Notes under the pieces: model-generated
Databases searched by the model: none
What the model saw: the letters and a program-made list of their open reading frames with translations, nothing else
Told to the model about the DNA's origin: nothing
From: Podarcis filfolensis
Lineage: Eukaryota
DNA: 64,000 nucleotides
Assembly (NCBI GenBank): GCA_964270895.1
Contig: OZ185435.1
Reading direction: 5' to 3' (one strand)
Program-made: the position numbers and the translations under genes
Part shown: one piece after another, positions 16,446-59,427 of the stretch
Position numbering within the stretch: the first letter of the stretch is position 1
How the letters are laid out: each line of letters starts with the position of its first letter

Positions 16446-16632
16446 TGTCAGGTATTCAATATATAAATCGGGACCAAATGTCTCTGGCTGTTGAGCTGCA
16501 TACAGGAATATTTTGGAGCCTGCTACTCCATGTTCCTGGAATCAGCTTGCACAGCATCCCTGCACACAATGGCACCATTACTCCCTAAGCATGTGTCATT
16601 GGCTTTTCTGTGACAAGGCAAATATGGTCAGG

Positions 16633-17112
16633 TGTCAGGGTTCAAGGAATCGGCTTCCTCCCCTTTGGCCATAAACGAGCAGATCAAATGAAAGGAATTC
16701 TGACCAATTAGTTTCATTAATAAACACAGTGAAGGACAAAAGAAAGCGTCAACCCAGAATGGCGGTGCTCCCAATTAAGGTTTACGCCCCTCCATCCCTA
16801 TTAATCTACGTCTTGTAATCTGAGTTTGTACCCTCTGCACTTTCTGTTCTGAGACTTTCTGAGCTCTTCTTGACCTTGGACTGGGCGGAGGAATGCTGTC
16901 CAGAGACTGTGAATCTGTTAACCCTCTCTCTTCCAATGTTTCTTCTCCTAGCTGTTCCCCATCCAGTATTTCCCAGCTTCGGCCTTCTGAACTATGCCCC
17001 ACTGCAAAACACTGTTCCAAATCTATGCCGTCCTCCTGCTCCTGGGAAGATTCAGGCTGGTGGCTCCCACCTTTCCTCCTCAGTGCAGCCCTCCTCAGCA
17101 CGGTCCCTGACA
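16633..17112 (-). mobile_element. Solo LTR (probably Gypsy/Ty3-type)
   Basis: TG...CA ends with 8-bp inverted termini TGTCAGGG/CCCTGACA; perfect 5-bp TSD tcagg at 16628-16632 and 17113-17117. Confidence 0.88.
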
Positions 17113-31285: not shown

Positions 31286-32070
31286 AAATGCTGATGACAC
31301 AACCTTGATGGCAGAAAGTGAGGAGGAATTAAAGAATCTTTTAATGAGGGTGAAAGAGGAGAGCGCAAAATATGGTCTGAAGCTCAACATCAAAAAAAAC
31401 GAAGATCATGGCCACTGGTCCCATCACCTCCTGGCAAATAGAAGGGGAAGAAATGGAGGCAGTGAGAGATTTACTTTCTTGGGCTCCATGATCACTGCAG
31501 ATGGTGACAGCAGTCACGAAATTAAAAGACGCCTGCTTCTTGGGAGAATAGCAATGACAAACCTAGACAGCATCTTAAAAAGCAGAGGCATCACCTTGCC
31601 GACAAAGGTCAGTATAGTTAAAGCTATGGTTTTCCCGGTAGTGATGTATGGAAGTGAGAGCTGGCCATCAAGAAGGCTGATCGCCAAAGAATTGATGCTT
31701 TTGAATTATGGTGCTGGAGGAGACTCTTAAGAGTCCCATGGACTGTAAGAAGATTAAACCTATCCATTCTTAAGGAAATCAGCCCTGAGTGCTTACTGGA
31801 GCAGATTCTGAAGCTGAGGCTCCAATACTTTGGCCACCTCATGAGAAGAGAAGACTCCCTGGAAAAGACCCTGATGCTGGGAAAGTTTGAGGGCACAAGG
31901 AGAAGGGGATGACAGAGGACGAGATGGTTGGACAGTGTTCTCGAAGCTACCAACATGAGTTTGACCAAACTGCAGGAGGCAGTGGAAGACAGGAGTGCCT
32001 GGCGTGCTCTGGTCCATGGGGTCACAAAGAGTCGGACGTGACTAAATGACTAAACAACAACTACAACTAC
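31286..32070 (+). mobile_element. Bov-B (RTE) LINE 3' fragment, frameshifted
   Basis: ADDTTLMAESEEELKNLLMRVKEESAKYGL RT motif; (CAA)n-type tail. Confidence 0.96.
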
Positions 32071-32164
32071 AGAGAGCCCCATATACCCTTTAGAAAAGGC
32101 AATAAAGGCAAAGAAAAAACCCATATCGGGAAGTCACTGATTCAGTACAGCTGGTGCAGCATTG

Positions 32165-32506
32165 TTCTGGTCCATGGGGTCATGAAGAGGAAGAAGAGGA
32201 GGAGGAGGAGGAGGAGGAGGAGGAGGAGGAGGAGGAGGAGTCTGGATTTGATATCCAGATTTATCACTACCTGAAGGAGTCTCAAAGCGGCTAGCATTCT
32301 CCTTTCCCTTCCTCCCCCACAACAAACACTCTGTGAGGTGAGTGGGGCTGAGAGACTTCAGAGAAGTGTGACTAGCCCAAGGTCACCCAGCAGCTGCATC
32401 TGGAGGAGCGGAGACGTGAACCCGGTTCACCAGATTACTAGTCTACTGCTCTTAACCACTACACCACACTGGCTCTCAACATGACTAAATGACTAAACAA
32501 CAACAA
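32165..32506 (+). mobile_element. Very short Bov-B 3' terminus split by a SINE
   Basis: tctggtccatggggtcatgaagag (32165-32189) ... aacatgactaaatgactaaacaacaacaa (32478-32506). Confidence 0.75.
32190..32477 (-). mobile_element. tRNA-head/CORE (Squam3-type) SINE with expanded (CTC)n tail
   Basis: Near-identical to 12911-13157; (GAG)n on the plus strand. Confidence 0.92.
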
Positions 32507-32736
32507 TGGCCCATCCAGCTAGATCTGCCAAGCAGGCTTGGCTCATTAGCATAATTAAATCCAAAGCATTACTGTGCTTGGCCAAGTTTCATCAAGCCTT
32601 GATTATTTTTTTTACTAAATCCATGAATTATGGGAAGAATCTGGCACCCAGGAATTTAGAGGGATCTGCTCCCCAAAACCTTAACACTATCCCCCTCTTA
32701 GACAAAATATATCTGACCACAGCTGTGTAATAACTG

Positions 32737-32769
32737 GAAGAAGAAGAAGAAGAAGAAGAAGAAGAAGAA

Positions 32770-32800
<31 letters not shown>
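32737..32800. repeat. (GAA)n microsatellite
   Basis: Direct. Confidence 0.97.
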
Positions 32801-32801
<1 letters not shown>

Positions 32802-32837
32802 CAAAAAAAATTCCACTCATATATTTAAGCTCATAAG

Positions 32838-33349
32838 TGTTTTGATAGGAATTTTAGGTCAAGATTTGCCAAAAAGCAAACAAAAACTTTTCATGTATGC
32901 TACAACTGTGGAACGGATGCTACTGGCACAAAGATGGAAAAGTGATAAAATACCAACCAAAGAAGAATGGCAAGAAAAACTTATGGAGTATGATGAAATG
33001 GCAAAACTAACAAAGACTTCGAAATAAGGACAAAAAATCCTTTATCAAAGATTGGGAACCATTTTCGGCCTTTATAAAGAATCAATGTAGAAAATTGGAC
33101 TCATTAGCAGGTTTTGAATAATCATTTACAATTAGCAAAAATTATATAATTTATAAGTTAAAATACAAAAATAGAGAAAAAGGAAATATGCAGGAAATGA
33201 TAGATAAACCAGAGAAGGAGGTTGAGGGAAGTCCGGGGGGGGGGGGATGGGGAAAATTTGGAATTGTGAATTATGTTATTTGTTATGATGTAATATTGGA
33301 AAAATGGAAAACTTAATAAAAATTGTTAAAAAAGAAAAGAAAAGAAAAA
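32838..33349 (+). mobile_element. L1 LINE 3' end
   Basis: ORF2-end peptide FMYATTVERMLLAQRWKSDKIPTKEEWQEKLMEY, G-rich 3' UTR, AATAAA and A-rich tail. Confidence 0.82.
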
Positions 33350-33987
33350 ATACAGCTCTCCTGTCAAAATACATAGCAGCAAAGTTAGTAAAGGCATATG
33401 ACCAAATCATCAAAGCACACAATGACACTTTTTAACACAACCCAACACAGTAACAGTCTTTGCCTTTCCAGCAATTTCCAGTTCATCAAGAATTCTTCAG
33501 GTATCCTGCTTCCTTCTTGGTGCAAACTCCTGCCAGATCTGTGTACCCTTCACAAATGATTGGCTGTGTATATAAATATTGATGTGGCTCCTGGATGAAC
33601 TAGGTGATACACACAAGTGCATTGCCCTAATTGCCATTTTAATAAAGGAATGTCCAAGGGATGCTTATAAAAAGAGAAGTGGCGGGGAGAAGGGGTTGTT
33701 TAATCCTTTTCCTTGCCACAATTTCAGTATTTCAAATCATTCACATGGAGCATTGCTCCTGCAGCATTCCAATCTTACAGAGGAAAAACAAGTTTCGTCC
33801 CTAATCAAAATAAAGTTCCTGGGGATGCGGGTGCTTTGGAGTGGGAGAACAGCAAGGGGGGTAAGGCTATGCATTTCCTTTCCCCCTCCACTTCTCTGCT
33901 CCCAATTCATCAAAAGCAGCCTTTCCTTTTTAAATAGGGTTGATAACATACTGTAATGCATTGGCATCTAAGGTCTACTTTATCTCT

Positions 33988-34823
33988 TTGTTGTTGTTTA
34001 GTCGTTTAGTCGTGTCCGACTCTTCGTGACCCCATGGACCAGAGCACGCCAGGCACTTCTGTCTTCCACTGCCTCCCGCAGTTTGTTCAGACTCATGTTT
34101 GTAGCTTCGAAGACACTATCCAACCATCTCGTCCTCTGTCGTCCCCTTCTCCTTGTGCCCTCCATCTTTCCCAGCATCAGGGTCTTTTCCAGGGAGTCTT
34201 CTCTTCTCATGAGGTGGCCAAAGTATTGGAGCCTCAGCTTCACGATCTGTCCTTCCAGTGAGCACTCAGGGCTGATTTCCTTCAGAATGGAGAGGTTTGA
34301 TCTTCTTGCAGTCCATGGGACTCTCAAGAGTCTCCTCCAGCACCATAATTCAAAAGCATCAATTATTCGGCGATCAGCCTTCTTTATGGTCCAGCTCTCA
34401 CTTCCATAAATCACTACTGGGAAAACCATAGCTTTAACTATACGGACCTTTGTTGGCAAGGTGATGTCTCTACTTTTTAAGATGCTGTCTAGGTTGGTCA
34501 TTGCTTTCCTCCCAAGAAGCAGGCGTCTCTTAATTTCGTGGCTGCTGTCACCATCTGCAGTGATCATGGAGCCCAAGAAAGTAAAATCTCTCACTGCCTC
34601 CATTTCTTCCCCTTCTATTTGCCAGGAGGTGATGGGACCAGTGGCCATGATCTTCGTTTTTTTGATGTTGAGCTTCAGACCATATTTTGCGCTCTCCTCT
34701 TTCACCCTCAATAAAAGGTTCTTTAATTCCTCCTCACTTTCTGCCATCAAGGTTGTGTCATCTGCATATCTGAGGTTGTTGATATTTCTTCCAGCAATCT
34801 TAATTCCGGCTAGGGATTCATCT
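33988..34823 (-). mobile_element. Bov-B (RTE) LINE 3' fragment
   Basis: Uninterrupted RT C-terminal frame and (CAA)n tail; probable short TSD/microhomology atctctt. Confidence 0.97.
33998..34750 (-). pseudogene. Bov-B reverse transcriptase C-terminal fragment (250 aa, open)
   Basis: MAESEEELKNLLLRVKEESAKYGLKLNIKKTK...YGSESWTIKK...RLQYFGHLMRR; preceded in frame by NNLRYADDTTL. Confidence 0.93.
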
Positions 34824-58952: not shown

Positions 58953-59427
58953 TGTCAGGATGCTGTCAGTGGCTCCCAGCTGGTTGCCCAGGAAAGTTTA
59001 AAGACAAGGAAAAATTTCTTACCATCCTTTTTTATTTCAGTCTTTATAGAGAGAGGCTATAGAACCTAGCCTCTTGGATAATGGCATCCCAAATGAATTT
59101 CCACCCCATCTCTCCCACTTTCTCATTCTTCATTCACATCATCTCCTCTATGGGTCCTGCTACGTGCCCTCTGTCTTTCAGCTCTCTGCTGTCCTACTTT
59201 TAAGGCTCACAGGGTTCTGGGAGGTGGACAGTCTGGAATGCTTTCTAAAGACAACGTGTCAGCTGGGTGTTGTTCTGGCTCTCCCATGATTTCCCATCTG
59301 CCTCTGAGCTGCGACCTCCCTCAAACCCCCCTGTTGTAAATCTATACTGTCTTCCTCTTCCTCCTCCCTGGAAGGATCAGGATGGGGAGGCAGTCTCCAC
59401 CATTTCTCCTCTCCCCAGCCCCTGACA
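58953..59427 (-). mobile_element. Solo LTR related to 16633-17112
   Basis: TGTCAGG/CCTGACA termini; TSD ccaag/ccaat; on the minus strand TATA-like ctataaa and AATAAA near the 3' end. Confidence 0.85.

What the first reader, a model, noticed from the sequence alone, without database searches (positions are those of the whole stretch)
16633..17112. Protein-coding frame inside a solo LTR, conserved at the amino-acid level with a second divergent LTR
On the minus strand, reading from LTR nt 2 with one frameshift near codon 18, this LTR gives VRDRAEEGCTEEERWEPP/QPESSQEQEDGIDLEQCFAVGHSSEGRSWE...DSQSLDSIPPPSPRSRRAQKVSEQKVQR...RKP*, about 110 codons, with the stop at 16775. The LTR at 58953-59427 gives VRGWGEEKWWRLPPHPDPSREEEEEDSIDLQQG/FEGGRSSEADGKSWE/...DTLSLESIPDCPPPRTL*ALKVGQQRAER. 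Shared residues often use different codons: IDL ttg/tta, SSE agt-gaa/agc-gag, SWE agc/tca (a serine codon switch), SL.SIP ctg/tta and cct/cca, PR cca-agg/ccc-aga, KV gtc/gta. That pattern indicates past purifying selection on protein. There is no ATG at the LTR start and the frame stops well before the LTR 3' end (before the TATA-like and AATAAA signals seen in the second LTR). Inference: it is an acidic-then-basic C-terminal extension of an internal ORF (pol/integrase or an accessory ORF) that reads through the PPT into U3, analogous in layout to HIV nef or MMTV sag.
Basis: partly seen in the sequence, partly recalled or inferred. Interest (0 to 1): 0.75.

Follow-up and report, generated by a model that had tools for sequence, protein, structure and literature searches.

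The report
Integrase tail encoded inside an LTR
This dead terminal repeat of a reptile jumping gene still holds broken code for about 110 amino acids that, in fuller relatives, form the tail of the element's integrase, a tail that likely helped tether the enzyme to host chromatin proteins.

Summary
16633-17112 is a solo LTR of a high-copy Ty3/Gypsy chromovirus family (Tf1/sushi type). The frame starting at LTR nt 2 was under purifying selection: pN/pS is 0.33 against the second LTR's family, versus 0.81-0.89 in four control frames. It is not a nef/sag-like separate gene but the C-terminus of pol. In relatives that keep internal sequence, integrase and chromodomain run through the polypurine tract into this frame (in phase at 9 of 15 junctions of this lineage, 18 of 22 in a sister clade). 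The frame fills most of U3. Three corrections: the window copy has two frame breaks, so 16775 is not the family stop; the serine-codon switch is an artefact of a deletion; the TATA box is not conserved. Plant CRM chromoviruses show a similar layout. The predicted tail is disordered with two helices, and its partner is unknown. In passing, the sister clade has lost the chromodomain's aromatic cage and carries tandem helix-acidic-FxGF motifs matching the published description of LEDGF/HRP2-binding motifs. Binding was not tested.

The parts
16633..17112 (-). Solo LTR of chromovirus family F1 (480 nt, 8-bp terminal inverted repeat)
   Evidence: 1497 first-look candidates in G000, the best 40 scored at 82-100% identity
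17113..17117 (.). 5-bp target-site duplication, 5' copy
   Evidence: 0 mismatches
16628..16632 (.). 5-bp target-site duplication, 3' copy
17058..17111 (-). Remnant of the pol tail, first ~18 codons (LTR nt-2 frame), ending at a frame-breaking deletion in the proline-codon C tract
16812..17057 (-). Remnant of the pol tail, middle part: acidic stretch, predicted short helix, Gly/Ser/acidic linker, W-E-I-L motif, SPR motif and start of the predicted basic helix; ends at a second deletion
   Evidence: 53% identical over 83 aa to the LTR part of L124, which is in one frame with a Pfam chromodomain
16801..16803 (-). Position of the family's stop codon (out of frame in this copy)
   Evidence: Same downstream context as the stops of unbroken F1 copies
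16766..16776 (-). Inferred start of R (self-primer site), by position relative to family F2 only; not verified for F1
   Evidence: F2-type L102 has an 11/11 PBS complement at LTR nt 340; a search for an F1 PBS found 0 LTR-linked hits of 11
16716..16721 (-). Mutated polyadenylation signal (family has ATTAAA)
58953..59427 (-). Solo LTR of related family F2, with a broken copy of the homologous frame (indels near 59331 and 59296)
   Evidence: 2586 first-look candidates

Best explanation
The stretch is a dead solo LTR of a Ty3/Gypsy chromovirus, and its 5' ~330 nt are the broken coding sequence of a ~110-residue tail that related elements translate in one frame with integrase and its chromodomain, a tail predicted to be mostly disordered and likely used to tether the integrase to host chromatin proteins. 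SHOWN: pol does not stop at the polypurine tract; the purine run reads as Gly-Gly-Asp and LTR nt 2 continues as Val-Arg. Only the 3' LTR is translated this way, and reverse transcription copies U3 to both ends (established retroelement biology), so every solo LTR keeps the frame without a start codon. SHOWN for F2 and the sister clade: the frame fills about 90-100% of U3, so U3 is both promoter region and coding sequence. SHOWN: selection acted on the protein while the families diverged; the window copy is now broken twice. PREDICTED: disorder, with a short helix (residues 37-42) and a long basic helix (84-107). INFERRED (about 40%): short motifs in the acidic part bind a host chromatin or transcription factor and the basic helix binds DNA or nucleosomes or carries a nuclear import signal, supplementing an H3K9me-type chromodomain.
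For: Window lineage, junction phase: in phase at 10 of 18 loci with a determinable phase, 9 of 15 after collapsing duplicates (binomial P 0.03). L124 has integrase end, chromodomain (PF00385, E 5e-8) and an F1-like tail in one frame, with stops but no frameshift. Sister clade: in phase at 18 of 22 junctions. L145 has a stop-free 1044-codon RT-RNaseH-integrase-SH3-chromodomain ORF ending 109 codons inside the LTR, and L153 (LTR pair 99.3% identical) a stop-free 325-codon stretch ending 100 codons inside. UniRef Podarcis muralis pol proteins P0004-P0006 cross the same junction. Selection, F1 vs F2: pN/pS 0.33 against 0.81-0.89 in four frames that each got their own protein-guided alignment (0.54 in the antisense frame that shares third positions); a DNA-only alignment gives net differences 0.27/0.28/0.45 by codon position. 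L145 vs L151-L153, LTR part: 0.46-0.51 against 0.80-0.99 in shifted frames. Structure model: mean pLDDT 69, pTM 0.28. Precedent for a targeting domain encoded in the 3' LTR: plant CRM group A (PMC3059260, passages).
Against: No F1 copy with internal sequence attached was found, so read-through for F1 itself is inferred from relatives. Six of 15 old junctions are out of phase, five by the same shift, including both junction copies of F3 (L123, L141), the family closest to F1; their G-runs differ in length. F1 vs F3 net omega is 0.50 with a 95% interval of 0.24-1.10, and the DNA-only alignment shows no third-position excess over second (0.06/0.10/0.10). Within-family dS also exceeds dN, so mutation bias or subfamily structure inflates the signal somewhat. 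The tail has no match in Pfam, PDB sequences or the ESM Atlas and no detectable homology to the sister clade's tail (hhalign probability 0.06%). No partner was tested.
Confidence: 0.75

Rival explanations
1. The frame is the pol tail but has no specific partner. It is a charged disordered appendage, kept only stop-free and soluble (perhaps with a nuclear import signal), and part of the apparent constraint comes from promoter DNA in U3.
For: Constraint is weaker than on SH3-chromodomain (0.46-0.51 vs 0.25). Tails of different clades are not homologous. A third chromovirus family in this genome ends pol at or just past the PPT (6 of 30 loci). No TATA box is conserved, so promoter elements probably overlap the frame.
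Against: DNA-level constraint would not single out third codon positions. Specific hydrophobic residues (E-W-W-x-P, L-x-Q-x-F, S-W-E, L-x-S-I) are shared between F1 and F2 although synonymous sites are saturated.
Confidence: 0.35
2. Read-through had already been lost in the masters that amplified F1 and F3, so these solo LTRs carry a fossil of an older ancestor's tail.
For: Both F3 junction copies are out of phase by the same shift in the PPT G-run. The F1-F3 omega interval reaches 1.10. No F1 internal sequence was found.
Against: The two G-runs differ in length, as expected from independent slippage. The F1-like L124 and L144 are in phase. The nt-2 frame is still the lowest-omega frame between F1 and F3 (0.50; P(omega>=1) 0.045).
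Confidence: 0.2
3. A separate accessory gene in U3, like nef or sag, made from its own start codon or a spliced RNA.
For: Position in U3 only.
Against: No ATG at the LTR start. The frame is continuous with integrase in stop-free elements. The PPT follows the chromodomain by about 40-46 codons, with no room for an extra gene. Protease trimming of the tail from integrase cannot be excluded.
Confidence: 0.05
4. Chance open frame in purine-rich, low-complexity LTR DNA.
For: Antisense frames are also long in some copies, and the window's two LTRs barely align as DNA.
Against: Frame-specific pN/pS, junction phase and continuity with pol.
Confidence: 0.02

Closest known systems
Tf1/sushi group chromoviruses (Ty3/Gypsy, Metaviridae); described in passages of bioRxiv 10.1101/2022.12.06.519325
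   Same: RT-RNaseH-integrase-SH3_Tf2-1-chromodomain order, 5-bp TSD, and a self-priming PBS complementary to an 11-nt site in the LTR.
   Different: pol continues about 80-115 codons into the 3' LTR in both long-tail clades examined. No report of this for vertebrate members turned up, but Butler et al. 2001 (seen only as a reference entry) and Repbase entries could not be read.
Plant CRM group A centromeric chromoviruses (CR motif); PMC3059260 and PMC3605345, passages
   Same: The polyprotein extends into the 3' LTR, and the LTR encodes a non-chromodomain integrase tail held to be a targeting domain.
   Different: In CRM the CR motif replaces the chromodomain and lies beyond the PPT. Here a chromodomain is kept upstream of the PPT and the tail is added to it. 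Sequence similarity to the CR motif was not tested.
TND-interacting motifs (TIMs) of LEDGF/HRP2 partners; PMC9987994, passages
   Same: Sister-clade tails have a helix ending in Phe, an acidic Ser/Thr/Gly linker of about 8-10 residues and FxGF, usually twice. The window lineage has a predicted short helix ending in Phe and a 10-13-residue Gly/Ser/acidic linker.
   Different: The window lineage has W-E-I-L/M in place of FxGF (FxGF in 0 of 22 sequences). The review calls FxGF essential for the known LEDGF/HRP2 partners. No binding was tested.
HIV nef and MMTV sag (features recalled, from no call)
   Same: Coding sequence overlaps U3.
   Different: Those are separate retroviral genes with their own start codons and spliced RNAs; this is the end of pol in an env-less retrotransposon.

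Membership tests
Solo LTR | TG...CA ends, short terminal inverted repeat, TSD on both sides, many dispersed copies with unrelated flanks | tested here: met
   perfect 5-bp TSD; none of 64 F1/F2 copies shared an LTR-adjacent flank except one pair inserted in the same other repeat
Ty3/Gypsy chromovirus | Chromodomain at the integrase C-terminus, upstream of the PPT | tested here: met
   PF00385 over the cut-off in L124 and L112 (read with X at stops), under it in L130; shown for relatives of the window LTRs, not for F1 itself
Ty3/Gypsy chromovirus | Domain order RT-RNaseH-integrase and no env | tested here: met
   L145 Pfam order; L151-L153 are about 5.5 kb with gag and pol only. Sister clade; in the window lineage gag and RT fragments lie upstream in L139
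Tf1/sushi group | Self-priming PBS complementary to the 5' end of R | tested here: met
   11/11 complement in L145, L150-L153 and F2-type L102. F1-like L139 did not match (3 mismatches) and no F1 PBS was found
Tf1/sushi group | RT/integrase phylogenetic placement with reference elements | not tested
CRM group A | Polyprotein extends into the 3' LTR | tested here: met
CRM group A | CR motif in place of the chromodomain | tested here: not met
   A chromodomain is present before the PPT
CRM group A | Centromeric localisation | not testable with these tools
   No centromere annotation; F1 and F2 hits are spread over many contigs
nef/sag-type LTR accessory gene | Own start codon, separate from pol (definition recalled) | tested here: not met
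   No ATG at the LTR start; continuous with integrase
TIM, window lineage tail | Short helix with hydrophobic anchors plus 8-16-residue acidic linker | tested here: inconclusive
   Predicted helix 37-42 at pLDDT about 70 and a linker of the right length, but only moderately acidic in F1
TIM, window lineage tail | FxGF (needed for LEDGF/HRP2) | tested here: not met
   0 of 22 aligned sequences
TIM, sister clade tail | Helix-like segment, acidic linker and FxGF | tested here: met
   13 of 13 tails chosen for being stop-free have FxGF, with 9 different residues at x, against 1075 of 26000 shuffles; 6 of 13 match the full pattern twice (pattern written after seeing the data; helix not modelled)
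TIM, either clade | Binds a TND domain | not testable with these tools
   The host LEDGF-type domain is split over exons and no whole-domain sequence could be obtained

The most novel reading that the evidence does not exclude
These lizard chromoviruses steer integration with host-motif mimics in a long integrase tail. The sister clade lost the H3K9me aromatic cage (first and third aromatic absent in 22 of 22 loci) and gained tandem helix-acidic-FxGF motifs that bind LEDGF/HRP2, reaching by motif mimicry the same tether that lentiviral integrases use. The window's lineage kept the cage and encodes, inside its LTR, a variant helix-linker-W-E-I-L unit for another TND protein. The probability given is for the sister-clade binding; the extension to the window's own tail is about 0.2.
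Probability: 0.45. Interest if true: 0.8.

Novelty: new variant of a known kind. Interest (0 to 1): 0.5.

Why it matters
It explains why thousands of solo LTRs in this genome look protein-coding and shows a vertebrate retrotransposon whose U3 is almost wholly dual-use, a layout found in the searched literature only for plant chromoviruses. Gene predictors can mistake such LTRs for genes. The more important lead lies in the sister clade. If its FxGF motifs bind LEDGF/HRP2, a retrotransposon has switched from a heterochromatin reader to the tether that HIV uses, and two lineages in one genome would predict opposite insertion preferences, which is directly testable.

Tried and rejected
Protein searches with an unbroken F1 tail found no longer fusion protein (0 of 891 candidates; weak evidence) and three short unnamed fragments. 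Pfam, PDB sequences and the ESM Atlas gave nothing for the tail. The sister FxGF region had no PDB sequence hit and one uninformative Atlas hit at 0.75. Homology between the window and sister tails was rejected. No 5' LTR was found as a full repeat for window-lineage elements in 27 stretches; two LTR 3'-end remnants turned up upstream of gag. A guessed F1 PBS pattern gave 11 hits, none LTR-linked. Jukes-Cantor dS for F1 vs F2 was saturated, so raw pN/pS was used. Copies used for pN/pS were chosen for an unbroken frame: 5 F1 (L055 dropped for a late frameshift), 12 F2 and 8 F3. My script's patterns for cage positions 2 and 3 failed on most window-lineage loci; those residues were read from the translations. 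The representative-protein search accepted no jobs, so there is no wide cross-taxon survey and no complex prediction. The model was not sent to a fold search (pTM 0.28). Read data were not examined. Recalled resemblances considered and not adopted: an autophagy LIR motif (W-x-x-L; F2 has Met), the Ty5 targeting hexapeptide (not kept in F2) and the EB1 SxIP motif (spacing wrong). Earlier findings of the scan: three look-ups returned nothing on this family.

Full report
1. Observation. On the minus strand 17112-16633 is a 480-nt element with TGTCAGGG/CCCTGACA ends and a perfect 5-bp TSD; 59427-58953 is a 475-nt element with the same kind of ends and a TSD with one mismatch. Each belongs to a high-copy family: F1 gave 1497 and F2 2586 first-look candidates, of which 40 each were scored. 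A third family, F3, is about 70% identical to F1. All 64 F1/F2 copies examined were solo. Polyadenylation hexamers fix the minus strand as sense (ATTAAA in 24 of 31 F1 and 28 of 30 F3 copies, AATAAA in 25 of 31 F2 copies), and no TATA box is conserved. The nt-2 frame is open for at least 95 codons in 5 of 27 F1, 12 of 30 F2 and 10 of 27 F3 copies with both ends; frame 1 never, frame 3 in 3, 0 and 1.

2. Corrections. The window copy has two frame-breaking deletions, near 17058 and 16812. Its stop at 16775 is therefore not the family stop, which corresponds to 16803-16801. The serine-codon switch is an artefact: F2 copies use AGT/AGC at that serine (10 of 12, none TCN), and a 13-nt deletion in LTR2 creates a chance SWE in another frame. 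The other codon differences checked (D-L, S-S-E, K-V) are real family differences.

3. Selection, measured on natural copies only (5 F1, 12 F2, 8 F3, chosen for an unbroken frame). With every frame given its own protein-guided alignment, F1 vs F2 pN/pS is 0.33 in the nt-2 frame, 0.81-0.89 in four control frames and 0.54 in the antisense frame that shares third positions. A DNA-only alignment gives net differences of 0.27, 0.28 and 0.45 at codon positions 1-3, and 0.39 after the ORF. F1 vs F3 is weaker: net omega 0.50, interval 0.24-1.10, with no third-position excess over second in the DNA-only alignment. Within-family dS also exceeds dN, so some of the signal reflects mutation bias or subfamilies. 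In young sister elements the LTR part has pN/pS 0.46-0.51, against 0.25 for SH3-chromodomain and 0.80-0.99 for shifted frames.

4. What feeds the frame. A PPT-plus-LTR pattern search and two searches with internal 3' ends found LTRs of this lineage preceded by an integrase end and a chromodomain. In L124 integrase end, chromodomain (PF00385, E 5e-8) and an LTR tail 53% identical to the window peptide (E 1e-22) lie in one frame, with stops but no frameshift. The chromodomain's last motif is in phase with LTR nt 2 at 10 of 18 loci, 9 of 15 after collapsing duplicates (P 0.03). Five of the six exceptions share one shift, including both F3 copies. No F1 copy with internal sequence was found. A younger sister clade settles the architecture. 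L145 has a stop-free 1044-codon ORF with RT, RNase H, integrase, SH3_Tf2-1 and chromodomain that ends 109 codons inside the LTR; L153 (LTR pair 99.3%) is stop-free for 325 codons across the junction; L151 and L152 are in phase with stops; L150 is frameshifted. Of 30 top SH3_Tf2-1 loci, 22 gave a junction of this clade and 18 are in phase; one had no junction match, one was truncated, and six belong to a family whose pol ends at the PPT. Podarcis muralis UniRef proteins P0004-P0006 cross the same junction.

5. Class and geometry. An 11-nt PBS perfectly complementary to a site in the LTR was found in L145, L150-L153 and the F2-type L102. This is the self-priming signature of the Tf1/sushi chromoviruses (bioRxiv 10.1101/2022.12.06.519325, passages). 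Taking that site as the start of R, the F2 frame (stop at nt 314-317, site at nt 340) fills over 90% of U3, and the sister frame runs 22 nt into R. The F1 R start is inferred by position only (negative).

6. Mechanism. Shown: read-through in relatives, past selection, present decay. Established biology: only the 3' U3 is in the genomic RNA and it is copied to both LTRs, which explains a start-less frame in solo LTRs. Predicted: a disordered chain with helices at 37-42 and 84-107 (mean pLDDT 69, pTM 0.28), net charge -19 in the first 70% and +4 to +5 in the last 30%. Inferred, about 40%: a tether. Integrase tails are where related elements carry targeting modules, such as the CR motif that CRM group A elements encode in the 3' LTR (PMC3059260, passages; PMC3605345, passages) and the Ty3 chromodomain region that contacts TFIIIB (10.1101/2021.07.27.453949, passages). 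The window lineage mostly keeps the three cage aromatics that PMC3059260 ascribes to type I chromodomains (read). The main rival is a generic charged tail without a specific partner.

7. The lead in the sister clade. Between chromodomain and PPT it carries helix-like, acidic-linker, FxGF units, usually two. FxGF is present in 13 of 13 stop-free tails with nine different residues at x, against 4% of shuffles (the fuller pattern was written after seeing the data). The first and third cage aromatics are absent in 22 of 22 loci. The review PMC9987994 (passages) defines TIMs as a helix, an 8-16-residue acidic linker and an optional FxGF that is essential for LEDGF/HRP2 partners; a search of its main text for 'transpos' gave 0 occurrences. 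The genome has two LEDGF-domain genes. The window tail has a similar helix-plus-linker layout but W-E-I-L/M in place of FxGF (0 of 22) and no profile homology to the sister tail. Binding could not be tested because the host domain is split over exons.

8. Novelty. ORF extension into the 3' LTR is published for plant chromoviruses. Searches (listings seen) found no vertebrate report, and searches found no retrotransposon FxGF/TIM report. The library lacks most subscription papers, Butler et al. 2001 was seen only as a reference entry, Repbase was unavailable and no supplements were read. PMC10570030 was read as passages and added nothing. Verdict: a new variant of a known kind. The window copy is an ordinary dead solo LTR; the architecture is real, and the most testable surprise is the sister clade's motif.

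Noticed in passing
L145:4243-4461 (-), L151-L153, L215-L239, P0004-P0007: Sister chromovirus clade: usually two helix-acidic linker-FxGF units between chromodomain and PPT, fitting the published TIM description; first and third cage aromatics absent in 22 of 22 loci.
   Followed up: partly
L145, L150-L153, L215-L238, P0007: The sister tail ends in a conserved C-W-K/R/G motif about 10-15 codons before the stop. In L150-L153 the stop lies exactly 22 nt past the self-primer site in two different families, so the ORF covers all of U3 and enters R.
   Followed up: partly
L210-L214, L218: A third chromovirus family whose pol ends at or just past the PPT, with an intact aromatic cage: a no-tail comparison group.
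   Followed up: no
L046 (G000:C13:34886245-34887678): An F1 LTR is inserted inside an F2 LTR in opposite orientation, so F1 was active after that F2 copy inserted.
   Followed up: no
L069, L098, L099: F2-type LTRs preceded by a short duplicate of the LTR start joined through a PPT-like run, without internal sequence.
   Followed up: no
G000 contig C19: A large share of the best integrase SH3 hits and of near-intact elements lie on this 43-Mb contig, as might be expected of a non-recombining chromosome (inference).
   Followed up: no
window 31288-34767: Long inverted repeat formed by two opposite-facing 3' fragments of a LINE reverse transcriptase, RTE/BovB-like by recall.
   Followed up: no
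L103:5513-8200: An 896-codon copia-type gag-pol fragment lies upstream of a related LTR; unrelated to this family.
   Followed up: no
L207-L209: Two LEDGF-domain genes in G000, the candidate host partners.
   Followed up: partly
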